Source: a virus. Taken from it: a stretch of 30,991 nucleotides of DNA. Of this stretch, positions 1-30,991 are shown in pieces. Under the pieces are notes generated by a model. It did not search any database, was not told where the DNA came from, and saw nothing but the letters and a program-made list of their open reading frames with translations. How positions within the stretch are numbered: position 1 is the first letter of the stretch; each line of letters begins with the position of its first letter. The stretch spans positions 1 to 30,991 of IMG/VR virus record IMGVR_UViG_3300045988_126185. One strand, given 5' to 3'. The position numbers were made by a program, and so were the translations under genes.

Positions 1-119
1 AGATTTTATAAATAATAATTTAAACTTGATATTAAGTATATTAGGAACAATTTTAACTGCTGTTGGTGGTTATATAGCTAAATTATATAAAAAGTATATA
101 AATGATAAACAAAAAAAAC
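1..119. repeat. Terminal direct repeat: bases 1-119 are identical to 30873-30991. This is consistent with an assembly overlap of a circular or terminally redundant genome.
   Basis: Exact sequence identity of window start and window end, read directly. Confidence 0.9.
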
Positions 120-11224: not shown

Positions 11225-11701
11225 ATGAAAAAAATAGAAATTAAATATATACCAATAGATGATATAAAACCTTATATAAATAACCCTAGATTAAATGAAG
11301 AGGCTATTCCTTATGTTATGAATAGTATAAAAGAGTTTGGATTTAAAAACCCTATTATATTAGATAAAAACAATGTAATAGTAGCAGGACATACTAGATT
11401 AGAAAGTGCTAAAAGACTTGATATGAAAGAAGTACCAGTTATTTATGCTGATGACTTAACTAAAGAACAAATAAAAGCATTTAGATTAGCAGATAATAAA
11501 GTTAGTGAAAAATCAATATGGGACTATACTAAGTTAGATGAAGAATTAGAAAATATTTTAGATATTGATATGAGCATGTTTGATTTTGAGAATATAGAAG
11601 AAACTAATTTAGATGATTTTTTTGAAGATAACGATAATAAAAAAGAAAAGGAGAGTAAACTTATAGAATGCCCTCATTGTCATAAGCCTATTGAACTGTG
11701 A
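11225..11701 (+). CDS. ParB-like nuclease domain protein (ParB N-terminal/sulfiredoxin fold); possible DpdB-like partner of DpdA.
   Basis: IPIDDIKPYINNPR...NPIILDKNNVIVAGHTRLESAKRL...LADN matches ParB N-terminal motifs. Overlap-coupled (GTGA) to the downstream TGT-like gene. Confidence 0.6.
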   Translation: MKKIEIKYIPIDDIKPYINNPRLNEEAIPYVMNSIKEFGFKNPIILDKNNVIVAGHTRLESAKRLDMKEVPVIYADDLTKEQIKAFRLADNKVSEKSIWDYTKLDEELENILDIDMSMFDFENIEETNLDDFFEDNDNKKEKESKLIECPHCHKPIEL

Positions 11702-12441
11702 AAGTATTTTTGGCTTCAACAAGTAGTAGAGAAAATATGGGAGAGAGTGAACTAAATAAAATTCCATATATTTTAGAAAGTTTTTATACAATAAAAAATG
11801 AAAGAACATTAAATAGAATAAAAAATATAAATAAAAAGAAATTTTTGTTAGACAGTGGAGCATTTACTTTTATGAATGGTCATAAAGGAAAAGTTGACTG
11901 GAATAAATACATAGAAGATTATGCAAAATTCATTAATAAATATAATATAAAATATTTTTTTGAATTAGATATAGATGTAGTTGTAGGTATTAAAGAAGTT
12001 GAAAGATTAAGAAAAAAGCTTGAAATGTTAACTCACAAACAATGCATCCCAGTATGGCATAAATCTAGAGGATTAGAATATTATAAAAGAATGTGTAAAG
12101 AGTATAATTATATAGCAATTGGTGGAATAGTTATAGGAGAAATAAAAAAACAAGATTATAAAGTGTTTATTCCATTATTAAAAATTGCTAAAGAAAATAA
12201 TTGCAAAGTACACGGATTAGGTTTCACGGTAACGAGAGAACTTAACAAGTATCACTTTTATAGTGTTGATAGTACAAATTGGTTGTCTGGTGGAAGATTT
12301 GGACAATTACATACATTTAATGGAAAGTTTATTGAAAGTAAAAGTTTTAAAAACAAAAGAGCAAAAGATTATAAGCAAATAGATAAACATAATTTAGAGC
12401 AATGGATAAAGTTTCAAAATTATGCAGATAAATATTTATAA
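11698..12441 (+). CDS. dpdA: TGT-like transglycosylase of the DpdA type (7-deazaguanine DNA base-exchange enzyme), lacking the Zn-binding C-terminus of tRNA TGT.
   Basis: LLDSGAFTF resembles TGT LTDSGGFQ (catalytic Asp). NYIAIGGIVIGE resembles TGT GYAIGGLSVGE. VHGLGFT resembles LMGVGTP. Short length, GTG start, and a preQ0/preQ1 transporter gene lies downstream. Confidence 0.6.
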   Translation: MKVFLASTSSRENMGESELNKIPYILESFYTIKNERTLNRIKNINKKKFLLDSGAFTFMNGHKGKVDWNKYIEDYAKFINKYNIKYFFELDIDVVVGIKEVERLRKKLEMLTHKQCIPVWHKSRGLEYYKRMCKEYNYIAIGGIVIGEIKKQDYKVFIPLLKIAKENNCKVHGLGFTVTRELNKYHFYSVDSTNWLSGGRFGQLHTFNGKFIESKSFKNKRAKDYKQIDKHNLEQWIKFQNYADKYL

Positions 12442-12480
12442 GTAGTATGCAAAAACCTACTATAAAAAACTAAAGGAGAG
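12441..12480 (+). ncRNA. Candidate preQ1-I riboswitch aptamer: P1 AGUAG/CUACU, 11-nt loop ending AC, tail AUAAAAAACUAA running into the RBS.
   Basis: As I recall it, the tail is identical to the B. subtilis queC preQ1-I aptamer tail (CUAUAAAAAACUAA). There is a 5-bp P1, and it sits immediately 5' of a YhhQ/COG1738 gene, the classic genomic context. Confidence 0.5.
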
Positions 12481-13131
12481 ATTAAAATAAAAAAAGATAA
12501 AAAAATAAGTAAATTATTATTAGGACTAATTATTTTATATACAATTAGTTTCTTGATAAGCAATATTATAACAATTAAACAAATAATTTTACCATTTGGA
12601 ATAACAATGACAAGTGCAGTTATATTATTTCCGATAGTATATATATTAAGCGATGTATTTAGTGAAGTATATGGTTATAGATGGAGTAGAAATACAAGAT
12701 ATATAGCATTTGTAAGTAATTTATTTATGGTATTAATATTCACATTAGTAATAAAACTACCAAGTGCAAGTACATTCACAGGACAAGAAGCGTTGATACA
12801 AACATTAGGAAGCACACCAAAGGTATTATTTGCTTCATTATTAGCATATTTAGTTGGAGATTTTGTAAATGATAAAATATTTGCTAAAATGAAAGAAAAA
12901 CATACTGATACAAAAGGATTTGGAATAAGAGCAATATTATCCAGTTTATTTGGAGAATTAGTAGATAGTTCTATATTCTTACCAATTGTATTTTTAGGAG
13001 TATTACCAATTAATATAATAATTACAATGGCAATAACTCAAGTAATATTAAAAGTAAGTTATGAAGTAATAATGTTACCTATAACAAAGTTAGTTGTTAA
13101 AAAAGCAAAATTATACGAAGAAAATAACTAA
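12481..13131 (+). CDS. yhhQ: YhhQ-family (COG1738) queuosine-precursor (preQ0/preQ1) transporter; likely a non-canonical ATT or ATA start after RBS AAAGGAGAG.
   Basis: ISNIITIKQIILPFGITMTSAVILFPIVYILSDVFSEVYG aligns with E. coli YhhQ SSNYLVQLPVSILGFHTTWGAFSFPFIFLATDLTVRIFG. Conserved TM1 (KLLLGLIILYTISFL) is encoded upstream of the first canonical start (TTG 12553), in frame, with no ATG/GTG/TTG available. Confidence 0.65.
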   Translation: MKIKKDKKISKLLLGLIILYTISFLISNIITIKQIILPFGITMTSAVILFPIVYILSDVFSEVYGYRWSRNTRYIAFVSNLFMVLIFTLVIKLPSASTFTGQEALIQTLGSTPKVLFASLLAYLVGDFVNDKIFAKMKEKHTDTKGFGIRAILSSLFGELVDSSIFLPIVFLGVLPINIIITMAITQVILKVSYEVIMLPITKLVVKKAKLYEENN

Positions 13132-13151: not shown

Positions 13152-13517
13152 ATGGCTAAAGAAGATAATTTAATACCAGGAGGACATAAATTAACAAGAG
13201 AAGAACAGTCGAGGGCTGGTAAACGTAGTGGAGAAGTAAGAGCATTAAAGAAAACCTTTAAAATGGCTCTTAAAGAACTATTACAAGAAGAAGTAAAAGA
13301 TAAAAAAGGAAATCCATCTGGAAAAACTTATCAAGATTTAGTAAACATAGGTCTTGTAAAAGGTGCTATGAAAGGGAATGCTATTAATTATAAAACTATT
13401 TTAGAAACAATAGGAGAAATAGAAGCAGAAAAAACCGAAGTATCAGTTCCTACAATAAAATTAGAAGTAGTAGATAATAGTAAGCTAGAGAGTGTGTTAT
13501 ATGAAGATAAAAAGTAA
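13152..13517 (+). CDS. Hypothetical basic protein; a possible DNA-binding or small terminase candidate.
   Basis: ORF with RBS AAGGAAG; basic N-terminus PGGHKLTREEQSRAGKRSGEVRA. Confidence 0.4.
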   Translation: MAKEDNLIPGGHKLTREEQSRAGKRSGEVRALKKTFKMALKELLQEEVKDKKGNPSGKTYQDLVNIGLVKGAMKGNAINYKTILETIGEIEAEKTEVSVPTIKLEVVDNSKLESVLYEDKK

Positions 13518-13857
13518 CAAGTATCACAACACTAAAGTTATCTATAATGGAATAAAGTTCGATAGTAAAAAAGAAAGAGACAGATATATTACTTTAAAAC
13601 AACTAGAAAAAGCAGGAATAATAAAAGAATTAGAACTACAACCAAAGTTCTTATTATTAGATACAATTCATTATAAAGGTAAAACATACCCTAAAACCTA
13701 TTATAAAGCCGATTTCAAGTACTTTGATAATGAAAAGGATAAATATATAGTTGAAGATGTTAAAAGCACTATAACAGCAAAAGATAAGGTATATAGGCTT
13801 AAAATAAAAATGTTATTAACAAAATATCCTGATATAGACTTTGTTGAAGTAATATGA
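13501..13857 (+). CDS. DUF1064 family phage protein.
   Basis: KYHNTKVIYNGIKFDSKKERDRY...ADFKY...VEDVKS pattern; the ATG at 13501 is preferred over 13492. Confidence 0.5.
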   Translation: MKIKSNKYHNTKVIYNGIKFDSKKERDRYITLKQLEKAGIIKELELQPKFLLLDTIHYKGKTYPKTYYKADFKYFDNEKDKYIVEDVKSTITAKDKVYRLKIKMLLTKYPDIDFVEVI

Positions 13858-13863
13858 TATAAT
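13855..13863 (+). promoter_or_regulatory. Extended -10 element TGATATAAT, the same 9-mer as in P3, overlapping the DUF1064 stop codon, with a weak -35 (TAGACT). Candidate promoter for the structured leader and the packaging genes.
   Basis: Sequence motif. Downstream TAATGTGATG (13864-13873) repeats the P3 operator-like half-site. Confidence 0.35.
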
Positions 13864-14241
13864 TAATGTGATGGAAAAAGTGTTTTACAATTTCCTTGCA
13901 TGCTATCTTTATAGGTAGCATAGAGTAGATAACAAATTACTACGGTGAGCTAGATAGCCGACTACATTATCTATTCTATGGTGTCTATAAGGCACTAGAA
14001 ATTCTTATTTTATTTGCTATACGAACTCTGAGAGGATAAGATAGTAAATAGCATTACCTTTAACAGGTAGTGTCTAATGATATATAAAAAGAGAGAAGTA
14101 AAGAGGTATCGTTCAAGAGTAATTAACTTGTTCGCTTTAGGAAATAGTTAGATAAGCCCTTGTATACTAACTTATAACAAGGTCAAACCTTTATATCATT
14201 AGACAGTATCTATTAAAGATACAAAGAAAGGAATTAAAATT
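13864..14241 (+). ncRNA. About 380-nt ORF-free, GC-richer structured region upstream of the packaging genes. Candidate long 5' leader, ribozyme-like RNA or degenerate group-I-like element.
   Basis: No ORF in any frame. Base composition is distinct from the flanks. It contains a GCCGACUACA (group I R-like) element and shares AAGGUCAAAC with the tape-measure intron. Confidence 0.3.
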
Positions 14242-14487
14242 ATGGCTAGAAAAAAAGATACAAAAAAAGGAATTAAAACTGAAAAAGAAATTATTTCTTT
14301 AGATAATTCTCCAATATCTCCATTGATACAAGAAGAAAAAGAAATAATACCAGAAAAGTTTGTAAACATTACACCAAAAAAAGTAGAACATAAAAATAAA
14401 ATTAATATTAAAAATAAAAGAGTGTATAAAGACTTAGGAAATGGATATGGAATGTATTCAGATGATGGGTCTATATTTAAAATATAG
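14242..14487 (+). CDS. Hypothetical protein (81 aa, Lys-rich).
   Basis: ORF with RBS AAAGGA. Confidence 0.45.
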   Translation: MARKKDTKKGIKTEKEIISLDNSPISPLIQEEKEIIPEKFVNITPKKVEHKNKINIKNKRVYKDLGNGYGMYSDDGSIFKI

Positions 14488-14496
14488 GAGGTTTAT

Positions 14497-14736
14497 ATGG
14501 AATTTATAAAACTAAGAGAAGATAGATACATGATTAAAAATAGTAATAATATTGTAGTATCTGAAAAAGAAAAGTTAGAATTAGAAAAAAAGAATTTAAT
14601 TATAGAAGATATTCAAAGCAATGAATGTCAAGGAAGAACAACACAAAGAATAAAAAAAATAGATAGGAAGTTGAAAAATGAAAGAAAACCAATTACAACT
14701 GAAACTATCGAAGAAACAACAGAACCTACTGAATGA
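14497..14736 (+). CDS. Hypothetical protein (79 aa); possible small terminase candidate by position.
   Basis: ORF with RBS AGGAGG, immediately upstream of and overlapping terL. Confidence 0.4.
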   Translation: MEFIKLREDRYMIKNSNNIVVSEKEKLELEKKNLIIEDIQSNECQGRTTQRIKKIDRKLKNERKPITTETIEETTEPTE

Positions 14737-16072
14737 TATAATATCTAAAGATATACCTGAAATATATGTATTAGGTAGTACCCAAAGTGGAAAGACTTAT
14801 GATATATGCTTTGCTTGTATAATGTATGCTCAGGAGCTTTATAAGTATAATCCTAATGAAAAATATTATGGAGCTATAATTGGCTGGAGTGTAACAACAT
14901 TAAAAGGGAACATAGTTGAAGTTATAAAAAATTTCCTTGAGTCAATGGGATTACAAAAAAAGAAAAATGGTAAAGGAGATTATGATTTACACTGGGGTGG
15001 AGATGATGACAAATATTTAGAAATATATAACATTAAATATTTGTTTTTTGGTTTTAACACCGTGTTATCATATAATAAAATATTAGGTAAACCATTAATA
15101 TTTGAATGGATAGATGAAAGTGCTAGGATATTTTCTTCTGCACAATTAAGAGAGAGCTTTAAAGAATTGCCTACAAGACAAATGAGCTATGTAACACATC
15201 CTTATTTAAAAACGATACATAGTTTTAATGTAGAGGGTAATGAAAACCATCCTTATAAAATTGAATATATTGACGGAAAACCTAAAGCAAAGCATTATAC
15301 TTTTTTCCCTTATGACAATCCTAAACTTGATACAGAAGAAGCTATGATAAAAGTAAAACAAATGTTCCCACAAGATAGTGCATTACAAAAACAAAAAATA
15401 TTTAACGAATGGTGCATAGCCGAAGGTAAAGTATTTGATAAATTAAATATAATAGATAGCTTAGATAATTTTGTTATACGTGAAATAGGATTAGGAAATG
15501 ACTATGGTAGTGTAAATCCTACAACATTCGTTCCAATAATGTTGACAATGAATAAATTAACTAAAAAATGGTGCTTAATAAGACTACCAGTTTATTATCA
15601 TAATCCTAAAGAATTAGGAGATACACCAACGACAGAGTTTTATAGTAATCAATTAAGAATGTTTATGGTTTATATAAAAAAGCAATTCCCACACGTTCCT
15701 TTAACTACAAATGTCATAGATAGTGAAGCTTCACATTTTGATAATAGATTAACCGTTGATAATATACAACACACGTTATCTGATAAAACCGACGGAGTTG
15801 ACGCAGGAGTACAACATTTGCAGTCTTTATGCGATAAAGAATACTTTTATATATTAAAAGGCAATAGTATAAAACAATTTACAAATGATGGAAAACCTAT
15901 TTATAGTGGTAAAGATGAAAGCTTAATTGAATTTGAAAGTTATCAATATGATAATGTAAGAAGTATTAAAGAGGGAACAAACTGTTATAAAAAAGAATTA
16001 GACCATAGTGTTGACGCAACACGTTATTTAATCAAAGAATGGGCAAATACTGGAAGATGTCCTATTGTATAG
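14678..16072 (+). CDS. terL: Terminase large subunit.
   Basis: Walker A GSTQSGKT. C-terminal nuclease motif DHSVDATRYL. N-terminal L..KQ..LL. Position upstream of portal. Confidence 0.8.
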   Translation: MKENQLQLKLSKKQQNLLNDIISKDIPEIYVLGSTQSGKTYDICFACIMYAQELYKYNPNEKYYGAIIGWSVTTLKGNIVEVIKNFLESMGLQKKKNGKGDYDLHWGGDDDKYLEIYNIKYLFFGFNTVLSYNKILGKPLIFEWIDESARIFSSAQLRESFKELPTRQMSYVTHPYLKTIHSFNVEGNENHPYKIEYIDGKPKAKHYTFFPYDNPKLDTEEAMIKVKQMFPQDSALQKQKIFNEWCIAEGKVFDKLNIIDSLDNFVIREIGLGNDYGSVNPTTFVPIMLTMNKLTKKWCLIRLPVYYHNPKELGDTPTTEFYSNQLRMFMVYIKKQFPHVPLTTNVIDSEASHFDNRLTVDNIQHTLSDKTDGVDAGVQHLQSLCDKEYFYILKGNSIKQFTNDGKPIYSGKDESLIEFESYQYDNVRSIKEGTNCYKKELDHSVDATRYLIKEWANTGRCPIV

Positions 16073-16147: not shown

Positions 16148-16432
16148 ATGAAAGAAATTTGGAAAGATGTTAAAAATTATGAAGGATTATATCAAGTCAG
16201 CAATTTAGAGTGGTGCACTCCATCTTATAATATTAATTATGGTAAAAGAAATAATAATTTGAATAAGGAAGTATGGCAATACGATTTGCAAGGTAAATTT
16301 ATAAAGAAATGGAAAAGCACGATGGAAATACAGAGAACTTTGGGTTTTAAAAACCAAAATATAAGTTTTGCGTGTTTGGGAGAAAAGCATACGTCACACG
16401 GTTACATATGGAAATATAGGGAGGTTGATTAA
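16148..16432 (+). CDS. Degenerate homing endonuclease: NUMOD4 N-terminus plus C-terminal DNA-binding motif, with the HNH catalytic core missing.
   Basis: MKEIWKDVKNYEGLYQVSNLEW (NUMOD4/I-HmuI-like) then directly ...LGFKNQNISFACLGEKHTSHGYIWKY. No H-N-H core lies between them. Confidence 0.5.
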   Translation: MKEIWKDVKNYEGLYQVSNLEWCTPSYNINYGKRNNNLNKEVWQYDLQGKFIKKWKSTMEIQRTLGFKNQNISFACLGEKHTSHGYIWKYREVD

Positions 16433-23320: not shown

Positions 23321-23802
23321 ATGAACGGTGGCGAGGTAGTATTTCATTTTAAAGGCAACGATAAAGATTTGGATAAAAAAACAAGTGAATTAAGTTCTAA
23401 ACTTGGAAATATTGGTAAATCTATCGGTGGAGCATTTTTAAAAGGTACAGCAGTGGCTGGGGCTTCGCTAACAGCTATGGTAGGAGCTAGCGTTAAAGCT
23501 TTTGCTAATGTAGAACAGTCAATAGGTGGTGTTGAAACATTGTTTAAAGATAGTGCTTCAACAGTTATAGCCAATGCAAAAAAAGCTTACACGACGGCTG
23601 GAGTAAGTGCTAATGATTATATGGAGCAGGTAACTTCATTTAGTGCTAGTTTATTACAGTCTCTAGGTGGAGATACAGCTAAGGCAGCAGAATACGCCGA
23701 TAGAGCAATAGTTGATATGTCAGATAATGCTAATAAAATGGGTACATCTATGGAAATGATACAAAATGCATATCAAGGTTTCGCAAAACAAAATTATACG
23801 AT
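23321..23802 (+). CDS. Tape measure protein, exon 1.
   Basis: Conserved TMP N-terminal region ending ...NAYQGFAKQNYT. The unspliced frame terminates at a TAA 17 nt later. Confidence 0.7.
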
Positions 23803-24118
23803 AAAATTAATGTCTGCTTAATTAGTGATAATTAAGTAAGTGTATGTGAACCTTATCAAGGGTGTGAGATTAAAATATAAGTAGGAAATGACTTGTTGAG
23901 ATAATCTTGCTAACTGGGGAAGCCTAAGTCTAAAAGATATGGTTATCCAGTGCCAAGCCTATAAATAGGAAGGTCAAACGACTATGAGTTCGTTACTCAG
24001 TACATTTACTATTGATACGTAAATGGAAGTGCATACTATCTCAAATGTGAGATAAAGATATAGTCTAATCCCACTTTTAAATAAGTGTTAAAGTACTAGG
24101 AAACTAGGGGTATAAATG
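23803..24118 (+). ncRNA. Group I self-splicing intron (no ORF) interrupting the tape-measure gene.
   Basis: Exon junction restores the conserved ...QNYT-M-LDNLKLGYGG. U before the 5' splice site; terminal G (omega-G). Internal group I R-like (ACGACUAUGA) and S-like (AAGAUAUAGUCU) elements that can form P7. P/Q-like CUGGGGAAGCC / AUCCAGUGCC. The 5' boundary is ambiguous by 9 nt (23803 or 23812). Confidence 0.7.
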
Positions 24119-25991
24119 GTTAGATAATTTGAAGCTTGGATATGGTGGTACAAAAGAAGAGATGGCAAGGCTTATAAAAGACGCTTCTAAAATGACCGAT
24201 GTACAAAAAGAATTAAATGTATCGGTTAAAGATGGAGATATGTCATTTGGTAATATAGTTAATGCTATTTCCGTAATGCAAAAGAAAATGGGTATAGCAG
24301 GAACAACTACAAAAGAAGCTTCCGAAACAATAAGCGGGTCTATCAATAGTGCTAAAGCAAGTTTTCAAAACTTTTTAGCAGGTACTGGTTCAATAGACCA
24401 AGTTATTTCAACTTTTTCAACAGCTGGGCAAAATATAATGAAAGCTATTGTTAAGATGGCACCAGATATAATTGATGGAATAGTCACTTTAATAAATGCA
24501 ATTGTACCACAAATACCAGCACTAGTTGGAGCTTTACTACCAACTGTTATAAATGGTATTTCTTCACTTATAAGTGGCTTAGCTGGGGCTTTGCCAGAAT
24601 TATTAAAAGTATTAATGGATACATTAATAGAACAAGGACCGATAATATTACAAACATTAATGGATAGTGTTTTAGATATAGTTTATTCTCTTTCTGATAC
24701 ATTACCAACATTAATACCACAAATAGTTAAAGCCATAATGACTTTATTACCAGTATTATTGAGTAATATGCCAGCTTTTATGAAAGCAGGAATTGAATTA
24801 ATAATGGCTGTGATAAATGGATTAGTTGATAGTATTCCTATTTTAATTGATATGCTACCAGATTTAATAGAAGAATTGGTTAATGGTCTTATATCTGCAC
24901 TACCTATGCTATTAGGTGTAGGAATGGCTATAAATATAAAACTTGCACAAGCAATTATTAAAGCAGTGCCAAAATTAATAAGTTCTATACCAAAAATTAT
25001 TAATTCTTTAGTAGAAGGATTTAAAAAAGGAGTATCAAATTTTGCCTTTGTAGGTAAAAGTTTAATTGATGGATTAGGCTCAGAAATAACAACAGGTGCG
25101 TCACAATTAGGTCAAAAAATATTAACATCTGTAACAAATTTCTTTACTAAAACTATACCTTCAATATTTAATAATTTTGTTTCATTCTTAGCTAGTATTC
25201 CTGCAAAAATAGGGGAATTTGTGCAAGGAGTTATATCATTTATTGGGCAAATACCTTACTATGTAGGATATGCAATAGGGTATGTAATAGGATTTATTGC
25301 TTCTATACCTTTTAGATTATGGGAAATTTTAACTTCTGCAGTAGAAAAAGTAAAAGAGTTCGGGATTTCAATATGGACATGGATAACTGTTGATTTACCA
25401 CAAATAATACAAGGTATCATCAACTGGTTTGCACAATTACCAGGTAGAATATGGACATGGCTAACAACTACTATATCAAATTTTGCTACATGGTTAGGAA
25501 ATATGAAAACTAAAGCAGTTGAAGGAATTAAAAAAGTTGCAAATTCAATTGTAAATGGGTTCAAATCTTTACCAGATAAAATATTCAATGTAGGTAAAAA
25601 CCTTATCCGTGGATTATGGAACGGTATAGTAGGAATGAAAGATTGGATTAGTGGAAAGGTTAAAGGATTTGCTTCTGGAGTTATAAATGGATTTAAAAAA
25701 TCGTTCGGAGTTCATAGTCCGTCACGTGAGTTTGCTATAATAGGTAGATTTAATATGCTAGGATTAGAAAAAGGTATGGAAGATATGCAACCTGATTTAC
25801 AAAAATCAATAAATGGTATGTTTGATTTATCGCCTAGTTTATATGGTTCTACAAGTAATAATTTAAGTCCAAATATAAATGTAACAGTAAATAATAACAT
25901 GAAACAAGACCCACTAGGACAAATGATTAATGATGTTAAAACTTTCTCTGGTGGCTCTAAAAACGATTATAGTTATGGAATGGGAGTGTAG
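24119..25991 (+). CDS. Tape measure protein, exon 2.
   Basis: Open frame from 24108. (M)LDNLKLGYGGTKEEMARL... is the conserved TMP continuation, and the frame is contiguous with exon 1 after removing 316 nt. Confidence 0.7.
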
Positions 25992-30867: not shown

Positions 30868-30991
30868 ATGATAGATTTTATAAATAATAATTTAAACTTG
30901 ATATTAAGTATATTAGGAACAATTTTAACTGCTGTTGGTGGTTATATAGCTAAATTATATAAAAAGTATATAAATGATAAACAAAAAAAAC
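30868..30991 (+). CDS. Holin, 5' portion (continues at window base 120 via the terminal repeat).
   Basis: ATG at 30868 with RBS AGGAGG. Its sequence from 30873 onward is identical to window 1-119, which continues in frame to the stop at 319. Confidence 0.6.
   Translation, partial: MIDFINNNLNLILSILGTILTAVGGYIAKLYKKYINDKQKK

What the first reader, a model, noticed from the sequence alone, without database searches (positions are those of the whole stretch)
13855..14241. A ~380-nt ORF-less, GC-richer structured region ahead of the packaging genes
This is the only long non-coding stretch in a tightly packed genome. It lies between the DUF1064 gene and the small genes preceding terL, starts with an extended -10 element (TGATATAAT) and a P3-like half-site, and has a base composition like the tape-measure intron. 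It carries a group-I R-like element (GCCGACUACA) and a possible partner (AAGAUAGUA), and shares AAGGUCAAAC with the bona fide intron. I cannot identify flanking exons. It could be a degenerate or free-standing group-I-like RNA, a long regulatory leader, or it may contain the packaging (pac/cos) site.
Basis: partly seen in the sequence, partly recalled or inferred. Interest (0 to 1): 0.55.

Follow-up and report, generated by a model that had tools for sequence, protein, structure and literature searches.

The report
Phage RNA scaffold cassettes, tandem pair
The gene-free stretch is not an intron or a packaging site but two tandem copies of a widespread, apparently undescribed phage RNA element, in which three conserved hairpins hold a freely exchangeable insert that in other phages is sometimes a tRNA.

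Summary
Window 13858-14241 has no ORF on the coding strand and folds far better than shuffles (z = -4.0). It is only mildly GC-rich (0.30 against 0.26).

The group-I reading fails. Rfam gives no intron hit here, although the real tape-measure intron scores 48.3 bits. The quoted R/S-like words and the shared 10-mer are at chance level.

The region holds two tandem, sense-strand units (13900-13998 and 14051-14225). Each has hairpin H1, a long stem H2 that encloses a variable "cargo", and hairpin H3.

- **Distribution:** One 16-mer from unit 1 hits more than 119 IMG/VR contigs, and 116 of 123 hits carry the full scaffold.
- **Structure:** 25 of 27 base pairs covary. G·U pairs outnumber A·C by 378 to 49.
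- **Placement:** 99 of 106 units run with the genes, 124 of 126 16-mer sites lie outside long ORFs, and tandem arrays are common.
- **Cargo:** 105 distinct sequences were found, and four are tRNAs.
- **Variation:** Phages 93-99% identical in the flanks keep the outer H1 and H3 but swap everything between them (gap of 384, 465 or 811 nt).

Best mechanism (inferred): an intercistronic or leader RNA processing cassette of the late operon. There is no Rfam, GenBank-phage or literature match.

The parts
13835..13863 (+). Promoter-like site: TAGACT, a 17-nt spacer, then the extended -10 TGaTATAAT, which overlaps the DUF1064 stop codon.
   Evidence: Consensus scan (10 of 12 matches, TG present). Coordinates. 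Conserved in the close relatives L150-L157. Function not shown. TGATATAAT occurs 4 times in the genome.
13866..13901 (+). Short leader hairpin ahead of unit 1.
   Evidence: Minimum-free-energy folds (-8.4 kcal/mol). Nearly identical in L150-L157 (one or two substitutions). The part TACAATTTCCTTGCAT is also in L056.
13900..13998 (+). Scaffold unit 1, a canonical family member.
   Evidence: Model R1 gives 84.9 bits, E 1e-13; the reverse strand scores 55.2.
13902..13919 (+). Unit 1 hairpin H1: GCUAUCU-UUAU-AGGUAGC.
   Evidence: H1 pairs covary across the family.
13920..13932 (+). Unit 1 H2 5' arm, AUAGAGUAGAUAA. It pairs with 13967-13979 and has one conserved G·U pair.
   Evidence: (repeat I2). 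The 16-mer at 13916-13931 is found in more than 119 viral contigs.
13933..13966 (+). Unit 1 cargo, 34 nt.
   Evidence: The same cargo occurs in L032 and L109, and a variant in L081, in different flanks. Fold z = -0.8.
13967..13979 (+). Unit 1 H2 3' arm, UUAUCUAUUCUAU.
13980..13996 (+). Unit 1 hairpin H3: GGUGUCU-AUA-AGGCACU.
   Evidence: H3 pairs covary, for example column pair 233-261 with GC 57, AU 33 and GU 20.
13997..14052 (+). Spacer between the units, with a predicted 11-bp hairpin.
   Evidence: Folds (-10.0 kcal/mol). Replaced by unrelated sequence in L150 and L151.
14051..14225 (+). Scaffold unit 2, a diverged family member.
   Evidence: Model R1 gives 28.2 bits, E 0.003 with filters off; the reverse strand scores 14.4. 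A 30-nt inverted repeat, 87% complementary, joins 14055-14084 and 14192-14221.
14053..14071 (+). Unit 2 hairpin H1: AUUACCU-UUAAC-AGGUAGU.
14072..14084 (+). Unit 2 H2 5' arm, GUCUAAUGAUAUA. It pairs with 14192-14204.
14085..14191 (+). Unit 2 cargo, 107 nt, of the type UAUAAAA...AAAGGU...AACCUUUA. It carries the recurrent loop motif GAGUAAUUAAC at 14117-14127.
   Evidence: Similar cargo outlines occur in L039, L067, L084, L121, L145 and L149. The motif is in 6 of 105 cargos against 0.055 expected. Fold z = +0.18.
14192..14204 (+). Unit 2 H2 3' arm, UAUAUCAUUAGAC.
14205..14222 (+). Unit 2 hairpin H3: AGUAUCU-AUUA-AAGAUAC. It ends 4 nt before the ribosome-binding site.
   Evidence: Kept with at most one substitution (identical in L154) in L150-L157, although the rest of the unit differs.
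14227..14244 (+). Ribosome-binding site AAAGGA and the ATG of p81, the first gene of the p81-p79-terL block.
   Evidence: The same arrangement (H3, then AAAGAAAGGAGG, then ATG) is seen in L009.

Best explanation
**Shown**
- The 384-nt gap consists of a promoter-like site, a short leader hairpin and two tandem sense-strand copies of a conserved RNA scaffold that is widespread in low-GC uncultivated phages.
- Each unit has three parts: H1 (7 bp), H2 (13 bp or more, enclosing a cargo of 23-350 nt) and H3 (7 bp).
- The left half, including the H1 loop, is also complementary to the right half. The unit can therefore fold either as three hairpins or as a rod of 24-30 bp with a conserved G·G mismatch that closes the cargo.

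**Inferred from orientation and synteny**
- The units are transcribed as part of the mRNA that leads into p81-p79-terL, either from the promoter-like site at 13835-13863 or by read-through from terS and DUF1064.

**Inferred mechanism**
- The double-stranded base of the unit is cut by a duplex-specific endoribonuclease, with host RNase III the obvious candidate.
- Cutting releases the cargo as a discrete small RNA.
- The upstream message is left ending in hairpin H1, which would protect it against 3' exonucleases.
- The downstream message is left starting with hairpin H3, 4 nt before its ribosome-binding site, which would act as a 5' stabiliser.
- Because anything placed in the H2 loop is excised, the loop would act as a safe harbour for RNA genes such as tRNAs. 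The conserved halves would serve as recombination joints through which cargo is swapped between phages.
For: **Family and structure**
- 116 of 123 hits have the matching right arm within 450 nt.
- Model R1 finds exactly two units in the window, both on the + strand.
- On 150 aligned matches, 93.8% of cells pair, against 86.0% for shuffles (0 of 500 as high) and 30-52% for slid controls. 25 of 27 pairs show changes on both sides.

**RNA sense strand**
- G·U pairs number 378 and A·C 49. Most pairs of the extended rod also covary, for example 27-236 with AU 76, GU 17, UA 11 and GC 8.
- The correct strand scores 14-30 bits above the reverse.
- 99 of 106 units are co-oriented with the coding strand and 124 of 126 16-mer sites lie outside long ORFs.
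- Cargo tRNAs lie in the same orientation as the scaffold.

**Intercistronic placement**
- In L009 one unit exactly fills the space from the terS stop codon to the ribosome-binding site of the p81 homolog, which leaves no room for a promoter.
- Units typically lie after late-activator-like, HNH or minor-head genes and before terminase, scaffold or capsid genes.
- The order DUF1064, array, p81, p79, terL recurs in L056 and in L150-L157; L087 shows DUF1064, array and p81 before its locus ends.

**Rod as an RNase III-type duplex**
- A duplex of 24-30 bp is predicted, and it is the lower-energy conformer in 99 of 116 trimmed scaffolds.

**Cassette exchange**
- Homology with close relatives stops at 13931 and resumes at 14190. 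The outer H1 and H3 are retained and the interior is replaced.
- The same cargo occurs with different H1, H3 and flanks.
- The phage encodes an Erf-like annealing protein and an exonuclease.
Against: - There is no expression or cleavage data of any kind.
- RNase III needs little sequence specificity. The near-invariant H2 sequence across phages whose TerL proteins are only about 55% identical is therefore not explained by this model. It hints at a sequence-specific partner or at frequent horizontal spread.
- Cargo as a class is barely more structured than shuffles (mean z = -0.64). The window's two cargos give z = -0.8 and +0.18, so many cargos may be filler or may act through sequence.
- Only 4 of 105 cargos are recognisable tRNAs.
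- The ends resemble terminal inverted repeats, which also fits a DNA-level mobile element.
- About 22 of 119 units are followed by, or contain, terminator-like hairpins. Some units may therefore end transcripts or be independent genes.
- Family members were gathered with a word from H2, so the apparent invariance of H2 is partly an ascertainment effect.
Confidence: 0.5

Rival explanations
1. The units are selfish miniature mobile DNA elements of the MITE type, with roughly 30-bp imperfect terminal inverted repeats. They spread among phage genomes, and the RNA fold is a by-product of the inverted repeats.
For: - The left half is close to the reverse complement of the right half.
- There are many copies per genome and many genomes. 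The scaffold sequence is near-identical in phages with diverged proteins.
- Near-identical phages differ in presence, absence and content of units.
- Correia, BOX and RUP elements are precedents (own knowledge).
Against: - There is strong strand asymmetry: G·U 378 against A·C 49. The halves differ in a conserved way, with a G·G mismatch in 114 of 117 units.
- 99 of 106 units run with transcription.
- The 5' arm of H1 and the 3' arm of H3 covary within their own hairpins.
- What is exchanged is H2 plus cargo inside a fixed H1 and H3, not the whole inverted-repeat element.
- No empty site (H1 directly followed by H3) was found in 1.48 Mb.
- None of the 19 window proteins scanned against PHROGs or Pfam matched a transposase family.
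Confidence: 0.15
2. The region is a cis-acting regulatory leader of the late or packaging operon. The two alternative folds (three hairpins or a rod) would act as a switch, or as a polymerase- or protein-binding element of the put or nut type, controlling read-through or translation of p81-terL.
For: - Its position lies directly after a promoter-like site and before the late genes.
- Two mutually exclusive conformers are both supported by covariation.
- H3 ends 4 nt before the ribosome-binding site.
- Units often follow a gene that matches phrog_36, annotated as a transcriptional regulator.
Against: - No terminator-like site is predicted in 13400-14800.
- Copy number (1 to at least 4) and content differ among near-identical phages.
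- Units also occur in front of scaffold and capsid genes, and some carry tRNAs. None of this is expected of a dedicated switch.
Confidence: 0.15
3. The cargo RNAs are the functional part: accessory or anti-defence RNAs such as replacement tRNAs, decoys or sponges. The scaffold would be merely their expression and processing frame, and the variability would reflect an arms race.
For: - The locus is a hypervariable island between conserved flanks in 93-99% identical genomes.
- Some cargos are tRNAs or tRNA-like.
- A loop motif, AGURAUUAAC, recurs in unrelated cargos.
Against: - Most cargos have no recognisable family: no non-tRNA Rfam family reached its gathering score in 18 cargo-bearing loci, and no family match with E below 0.4 in the gap itself or in L012 and L020.
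- Cargos show little excess structure.
- No complementary target was found in the phage's own genome. Host genomes could not be searched.
Confidence: 0.12
4. The region contains the pac or cos packaging site.
For: It lies between the terS-like gene and terL. In L012 the array lies between an HNH gene and terS, where cos sits in HNH-cos phages (own knowledge).
Against: - The interior, 13932-14189, is replaced in near-identical phages. Phages with the same gene order upstream of the DUF1064 gene (L150 and L151) carry different arrays.
- Eight near-identical contigs start at different points and none ends at the region. The window itself is a circular assembly with a 119-nt overlap.
- Covarying, strand-specific hairpins are not a feature of terminase sites.
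Confidence: 0.04
5. The region is a degenerate or free-standing group I intron-like RNA.
For: It contains short words that resemble the R and S elements, and one 10-mer shared with the real intron.
Against: - No Intron_gpI match appears at E <= 10, whereas the real intron scores 48.3 bits.
- Alignment to the intron is no better than shuffles.
- The words fall in unrelated parts (cargo 1, the spacer, cargo 2) of a different and well-supported architecture.
Confidence: 0.02

Closest known systems
Phage RNase III processing sites (T7 R sites; Bacillus phage SP82 sites)
   Same: Both are conserved, irregular hairpins of about 25-30 bp between cistrons of phage polycistronic mRNAs. Both contain an internal mismatch, and both are thought to leave hairpin-capped, stabilised message ends. 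The SP82 sites are also conserved in sequence (own knowledge).
   Different: Here the stem encloses a 23-350 nt interchangeable insert, and each half is itself a hairpin. Units form tandem arrays that differ between near-identical phages. Cleavage has not been tested.
Leader-trailer processing stalks of rRNA and tRNA operons
   Same: In both, a long duplex formed by flanking sequences closes a functional RNA that is released by cutting the duplex. Some cargos here are tRNAs.
   Different: Here the stalk is the conserved part and the enclosed RNA is the variable part. The elements are phage-borne and sit inside mRNAs.
Correia/NEMIS, BOX, RUP and ERIC intergenic repeat elements
   Same: All have ends resembling terminal inverted repeats and a modular middle. 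All are intergenic, are co-transcribed and fold in RNA. Correia elements are cut by RNase III (own knowledge).
   Different: This family shows a strong bias in orientation and in G·U pairs. What is exchanged is the inner hairpin, not the whole element. It carries tRNA cargo and sits in phage genomes, and no target duplication or empty site was seen.
Integron cassette arrays and attC sites
   Same: Both are arrays of exchangeable modules bounded by imperfect palindromes with a variable centre, and both are strand-specific folded structures.
   Different: No integrase is present. The variable part lies inside the hairpin and is non-coding. The evidence points to RNA rather than single-stranded DNA.
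GOLLD and ROOL phage-associated RNAs
   Same: All are phage-borne non-coding RNAs from gut or rumen type samples that lie next to tRNAs. GOLLD and ROOL are both described as lying close to tRNA genes and in prophage regions (PMC5737381, section on ROOL); that GOLLD sometimes encloses a tRNA rests on my own knowledge.
   Different: GOLLD and ROOL are large and ornate at about 600-800 nt. Here the conserved part is about 60 nt, and there is no Rfam match to either.
Group I intron (RF00028)
   Same: The only shared feature is that a real one is present elsewhere in this genome (23842-24088).
   Different: There is no model match, no P7 pairing and no exons. See the membership test.

Membership tests
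Group I intron (Rfam RF00028) | Match to the covariance model (P3-P9 core with R/S pairing). | tested here: not met
   No hit at E <= 10 in 13700-14400. The positive control in the same genome scores 48.3 bits at 23842-24088.
Group I intron (Rfam RF00028) | Interrupts a gene, with flanking exons that join into one reading frame. | tested here: not met
   The flanks are a complete DUF1064 gene and a complete p81 gene. Relatives have both genes intact with different inserts between them.
Any curated RNA family (Rfam 15, 4227 models) | Score at or above the family's gathering threshold. | tested here: not met
   There are 0 hits in the window at gathering threshold. Only microRNA-like and snoRNA chance hits with E >= 0.4 fall in the region. 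L012 and L020 gave one weak sbrA hit at L020 1449-1494, outside their arrays.
Three-hairpin cargo scaffold (model R1, defined here) | H1, H2 and H3 are adjacent with no linker, the cargo sits in the H2 loop, and the unit lies on the sense strand. | tested here: met
   Unit 1 scores 84.9 bits (E 1e-13) and unit 2 scores 28.2 bits (E 0.003). Both are on the + strand and both beat their reverse strands.
Three-hairpin cargo scaffold (model R1, defined here) | Covariation supports all three helices. | tested here: met
   25 of 27 pairs show double changes. 93.8% of cells pair, against 86% for shuffles and 30-52% for slid controls. Caveat: the alignment was fitted to the model and includes some reverse-strand rows. 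A filtered recount agrees.
RNase III substrate | About 20 bp or more of near-continuous double-stranded RNA. | tested here: met
   The predicted rod is 24 bp in the canonical unit and 30 nt at 87% complementarity in unit 2. This is a prediction only.
RNase III substrate | Cleavage by the enzyme. | not testable with these tools
   This needs an in-vitro assay or end-mapping.
MITE-type mobile element | Terminal inverted repeats. | tested here: met
   The two halves, about 30 nt each, are imperfectly complementary.
MITE-type mobile element | Target-site duplication and empty sites; insertion in either orientation. | tested here: not met
   No empty site was found in 1.48 Mb, and 99 of 106 units are co-oriented with the genes. 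Target duplications were not searched systematically.
pac/cos packaging site | Terminase cutting, with virion DNA ends at the site. | not testable with these tools
   The indirect evidence is against it. The interior is replaced in near-identical phages and the contigs are permuted.
Sigma-70-type promoter | -35 and -10 hexamers at 16-18 nt spacing. | tested here: inconclusive
   The site at 13835-13863 matches 10 of 12 positions with a TG extension. However, 9 sites were found in the scanned stretch against 7.6 expected from shuffles.
Intrinsic terminator or attenuator | A G+C-rich hairpin followed by a run of T. | tested here: not met
   0 sites in 13400-14800.
tRNA gene | Cloverleaf detected by ARAGORN or by Rfam RF00005. 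| tested here: not met
   There are none in the window. Other members of the scaffold family do carry tRNAs.
CRISPR array or type III antitoxin RNA array | Near-identical short repeats with regular spacing, next to cas or toxin genes. | tested here: not met
   The two units differ strongly from each other. Inserts range from 23 to 351 nt. No cas or toxin family was found in the flanking genes.

The most novel reading that the evidence does not exclude
These units may form a phage-borne 'RNA cassette' system. In this reading a conserved sense-strand scaffold acts as a universal expression, processing and recombination platform for interchangeable small RNA genes, including tRNAs, tRNA-like RNAs and other cargo. 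Cargo would be shuffled between phages at the scaffold joints, much as integrons shuffle protein genes. The hypervariable cargo would encode host-interaction or anti-defence RNAs. The extreme sequence conservation of the scaffold would then reflect a dedicated, still unknown sequence-specific partner, either a nuclease or an RNA-binding protein.
Probability: 0.3. Interest if true: 0.9.

Novelty: new variant of a known kind. Interest (0 to 1): 0.72.

Why it matters
If the reading is right, a large group of low-GC uncultivated phages (the window's close relatives come from samples whose names look like human gut metagenomes) shares a compact RNA device. That device would punctuate late transcripts and also serve as a plug-in slot for small RNA genes.

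- It would add a new, well-supported structured RNA class of 27 base pairs, nearly all covarying, that is absent from Rfam.
- It would explain where and how some phage tRNAs and unknown small RNAs are expressed.
- It would identify a hotspot of variation between otherwise near-identical phages that current protein-centred annotation cannot see.
- The scaffold could also be a useful natural part for expressing and excising RNAs in Firmicutes.
- For this genome specifically, it removes a false lead: there is no second intron or packaging site in this region.

Tried and rejected
- **Rfam:** The whole window was searched at gathering threshold and at E <= 5, the region at E <= 10, and 20 related loci as well. 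Only tRNAs inside some cargos, the real intron and weak chance hits appeared.
- **GenBank phages (INPHARED):** Searched with the region plus flanks and with a consensus unit. Nothing found.
- **Direct similarity in TerL relatives:** Only short words were found, and these led to the repeat.
- **Decayed N-terminal extension of p81:** Rejected. Relatives with longer p81 homologs have unrelated coding sequence there, and the gap has no frame.
- **Closing stem that would make a cloverleaf:** The flanks do not pair in other members (by inspection).
- **Hammerhead in the L130 and L139 cargo:** CUGAUGAG...CGAAAC is present but there is no Rfam hit.
- **CRISPR-like, Cas12a-handle-like and T7-promoter-like readings of the conserved words:** Rejected by inspection.
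- **Antisense targets of the cargo in the phage's own genome:** Only chance-level matches.
- **Excess structure in cargo:** Weak, with mean z = -0.64.
- **Empty scaffold sites:** None found.
- **Literature:** Five full-text searches, including the conserved words themselves, found no description (PMC5737381 read). Subscription journals are not covered, so a prior description cannot be excluded.
Full report
**1. The observation**

Window 13858-14241 lies between the stop codon of a DUF1064 gene (13492-13857; Pfam E 1.6e-21) and the ATG of an 81-aa gene, p81. p81 is followed by a 79-aa gene (p79) and terL (14678-16072). No + strand ORF of 25 aa or more lies in the gap.

The + strand RNA folds at -93.9 kcal/mol, against -71.6 +/- 5.5 for dinucleotide shuffles (z = -4.04). 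The - strand gives z = -2.85. GC is 0.299 against 0.261 for the genome, only the 83rd percentile.

The extended -10 sequence TGATATAAT (13855-13863) with TAGACT 17 nt upstream is real, but it is one of four TGATATAAT copies in the genome. Other apparent gaps hold small ORFs. Apart from the intron, this is therefore the longest non-coding stretch.

The window itself is a closed circular assembly. Its first 119 nt equal its last 119 nt, giving a genome of 30,872 bp.

**2. The group-I idea fails**

Rfam at its gathering threshold finds nothing in the window. At E <= 5 it finds a group I intron at 23842-24088 (48.3 bits against a threshold of 50, E 1.6e-9).

The same library finds no intron-like match in 13700-14400 even at E <= 10. 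It finds only microRNA-like hits that reflect one long hairpin. The shared AAGGTCAAAC lies in the intron's R element. The best local alignment between the gap and the intron scores 23, against 21.5 +/- 2.8 for shuffles. AAGATAGTA occurs three times in the genome.

**3. What is there: two tandem scaffold units**

Comparison with TerL relatives showed short shared words upstream of terL in L012 and L020. Reading those loci revealed a repeated unit that is also present twice in the window.

| Part | Unit 1 (13900-13998) | Unit 2 (14051-14225) |
|---|---|---|
| H1 | 13902-13919, GCUAUCU-UUAU-AGGUAGC | 14053-14071 |
| H2 arms | 13920-13932 and 13967-13979 | 14072-14084 and 14192-14204 |
| Cargo | 34 nt | 107 nt |
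| H3 | 13980-13996, GGUGUCU-AUA-AGGCACU | 14205-14222 |

H3 of unit 2 ends 4 nt before the ribosome-binding site AAAGGA of p81. A covariance model built from 33 members (R1) was run with filters off. It finds exactly these two units in the 31-kb genome, both on the + strand. Unit 1 scores 84.9 bits (E 1e-13; reverse strand 55.2). Unit 2 scores 28.2 bits (E 0.003; reverse strand 14.4).

**4. A large family**

Of 123 hits, 116 have the matching right arm within 450 nt, and 3 more are cut by the end of their locus. These are therefore members, not chance matches.

The loci are low in GC (0.24-0.43, median 0.29). They carry at least three different TerL families. Model R1 finds 303 matches, counting both strands, in 100 loci. 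Tandem arrays of 2-5 units are common, for example in L146, L033, L131, L066, L069, L122 and L142.

Nothing similar is present in 50,697 GenBank phage records. Five literature searches, including searches for the conserved words themselves, found nothing.

**5. It is a sense-strand RNA structure**

On the model-fitted alignment, 93.8% of cells pair. Column shuffles give 86.0% (0 of 500 as high) and slid partners give 30-52%. Of the 27 pairs, 25 show changes on both sides. After reverse-strand duplicates were removed, the same pattern holds, for example H3 pair 233-261 with GC 57, AU 33 and GU 20.

- G·U pairs outnumber A·C by 378 to 49, including one G·U in H2 kept in 102 of 114 units.
- 99 of 106 units point the same way as the surrounding genes, and 124 of 126 16-mer sites lie outside long ORFs.
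- tRNAs found inside the cargo have the orientation of the scaffold.

A double-stranded DNA site or a neutral inverted repeat would not show this asymmetry.

**6. Two folds**

The 3' arm and loop of H1 are complementary to the 5' arm and loop of H3. This extends H2 to a rod of 24-30 bp with a G·G mismatch conserved in 114 of 117 units. Most of these extra pairs covary too, for example 27-236 with AU 76, GU 17, UA 11 and GC 8. The rod is the lower-energy form in 99 of 116 cargo-trimmed scaffolds and in unit 2. The three-hairpin form is the minimum for unit 1. Both folds are therefore under selection, and I cannot tell which one is functional or when.

**7. The cargo**

The 105 distinct cargos fall into about 76 similarity clusters.

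- Four are tRNAs (Trp three times and Arg once), and eight have a T-loop motif.
- In L074 and L033 the Rfam tRNA model uses the inner H2 stem as the acceptor stem.
- Most cargos match nothing: no non-tRNA Rfam family reached its gathering score in 18 cargo-bearing loci. They fold only slightly better than shuffles, with mean z = -0.64. The window's cargos give z = -0.8 and +0.18.
- Cargo 1 recurs in L032 and L109, with a variant in L081, in different flanks.
- Cargo 2 shares an outline (UAUAAAA...AAAGGU...AACCUUUA) with cargos in L039, L067, L084, L121, L145 and L149.
- Cargo 2 also carries the loop motif GAGUAAUUAAC (14117-14127), which occurs in 6 of 105 cargos against 0.055 expected.
- No complementary target exists in the phage's own genome.

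**8. Context**

The gene at 13152-13517 shares the invariant C-terminal tail VVDNxxxE with proteins at the same position in relatives. In L003, L005 and L009 those proteins are Pfam Terminase_2 small subunits. The array therefore lies between a terS-like gene and terL.

In L009 a single unit fills exactly the space between the terS stop codon and the ribosome-binding site of the p81 homolog. No promoter fits there, so the unit must be part of a polycistronic mRNA.

Across the family, units follow HNH genes, genes matching phrog_36 (annotated as a transcriptional regulator) and minor-head genes. They precede terminase, scaffold and capsid genes. These are the starts of late transcription units and the leaders of highly expressed genes. 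About 22 of 119 units are followed by, or contain, a terminator-like hairpin, and 14 are followed within 40 nt by a ribosome-binding site and an ORF.

**9. A hypervariable cassette site**

An exact look-up of p81 returned eight contigs of 18-32 kb from samples whose names look like human gut metagenomes. Their start points are permuted.

Their flanks are 93-99% identical to the window, but the gap varies:

| Gap length | Contigs |
|---|---|
| 384 nt | L152 (the window type) |
| 465 nt | L150, L153 |
| 811 nt | L151, L154-L157 |

Different units fill each gap. Homology stops at 13931, just inside the H2 5' arm of the first unit. It resumes at 14190, at the H2 3' arm of the last unit. The outer H1, the last H3 and the ribosome-binding site are kept, and everything between them is replaced.

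The first unit of L151 has the same H1 and H3 as the window's unit 1. Its H2 stem is different, compensated on both arms (AUAUUGAGUAAAUAUA pairing with UAUAUUUACUUGAUAU), and its cargo is about 100 nt. Elsewhere the same cargo is combined with different H1, H3 and flanks. The module that is exchanged is therefore H2 plus cargo, and the conserved halves are the joints.

The phage encodes an Erf-like annealing protein and an exonuclease that could use such short homologies (this link is an inference). L150 and L151 have the same gene order upstream of the DUF1064 gene but different arrays. This argues against a packaging signal.

**10. Mechanism**

I commit to an RNA processing cassette. The unit is transcribed within the late or packaging mRNA. 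Its double-stranded base is then cut by a duplex-specific endoribonuclease, with RNase III the obvious host enzyme.

- The cargo is released as a discrete RNA.
- The upstream RNA ends in H1.
- The downstream RNA begins with H3, next to its ribosome-binding site.

This explains several features together. The three helices are adjacent with no linker, and units sit between a stop codon and a ribosome-binding site. The loop tolerates any insert, tRNAs occur in it, and units form arrays.

The architecture, family, strand and variability are shown. Transcription, cutting and stabilisation are inferred.

The main weakness is the near-invariant H2 sequence across distant phages, which RNase III does not require. 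This points to a specific partner or to frequent horizontal transfer. It keeps the mobile-element, regulatory-switch and functional-cargo readings alive.

**11. Verdict**

The region is a tandem pair of members of a widespread phage RNA scaffold family that I could not find described. I file it as a new variant of known kinds (phage RNase III-type intercistronic processing sites and processing stalks). There is a substantial chance that it is something more distinctive: an exchangeable RNA-gene cassette system.

Noticed in passing
window 23842-24088 (+): A group I intron lies between the ORFs at 23321-23821 and 24129-25991, in the tape-measure region. It scores 48.3 bits, just under Rfam's gathering score of 50 (E 1.6e-9). 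Clear R (GGUCAAACGACUAUGAG) and S (AAGAUAUAGUCU) elements are present.
   Followed up: partly
window 12436-12479 (+), with genes at 11698-12441 and 12553-13131: A weak PreQ1 riboswitch match (23.5 bits against a gathering score of 39, E 0.96) sits directly upstream of a Vut_1/YhhQ-type transporter gene. It follows a gene like queuine tRNA-ribosyltransferase (DpdA-type; phrog_887, E 9e-60). Together these look like a 7-deazaguanine (preQ0) module with its own riboswitch.
   Followed up: no
window 1-119 and 30873-30991: The first 119 nt are repeated exactly at the end, so the window is a closed circular assembly of a 30,872-bp phage genome. Eight near-identical contigs start at different points.
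   Followed up: partly
window 16148-16432 (+); L154 4907-5419: A truncated NUMOD4/NUMOD1 homing-endonuclease ORF (94 aa) lies just after terL. One close relative has the full 170-aa NUMOD4 + HNH_3 gene, and the others have no such gene there but a 65-67-aa ORF without a Pfam hit. This is a presence/absence polymorphism next to terL.
   Followed up: no
window 14215-14239 and 14254-14278: A 25-nt direct repeat (96% identical, 39 nt apart) is present. The H3 3' arm plus ribosome-binding-site sequence AAAGATACAAAGAAAGGAATTAAAA is duplicated inside the first codons of p81 (residues KKDTKKGIK). It may be a scar of a duplication or a recombination event.
   Followed up: no
window 13152-13517; L003 287-904, L005 4586-5185, L009 4669-5262: The terS-like gene shares only its C-terminal tail (VVDNxxxE) with the Terminase_2 small subunits of relatives. 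In L012 the N-terminal part is a KGG-motif region instead. In close relatives only about 75 nt of the gene's 3' end is conserved, which suggests that the DNA-binding domain is swapped.
   Followed up: partly
window 14117-14127; cargos in L039, L053, L067, L096, L139, L143 and L145: The loop motif (G)AGURAUUAAC recurs in otherwise unrelated cargos, in 6 of 105 against 0.055 expected by shuffling. Its partner and role are unknown.
   Followed up: partly
L074 1284-1401 and L033 3970-4089: The Rfam tRNA model (42 bits) matches 118-120-nt tRNA-like cargos in which the inner part of the scaffold's H2 stem serves as the acceptor stem. No free 3' end would exist without processing.
   Followed up: no
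L151 2577-2800 (also L154-L157): Between two recognised units there is about 220 nt with a T-arm-like segment (AATGGTTTGATTCCATT). Model R1 does not recognise it. It may be a further, more diverged unit or a tRNA-like RNA.
   Followed up: no
window 13911-13932 (scaffold left half): The conserved left half, TATAGGTAGCATAGAGTAGATA, carries TAG stop codons in all three + strand frames. Any read-through translation from the upstream gene would stop before the cargo.
   Followed up: no
window 9719, 10405, 13855 and 14734: The extended -10 word TGATATAAT occurs four times on the + strand, including at the p79/terL junction. These could be a set of phage promoters or simply a result of AT-rich composition.
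   Followed up: no
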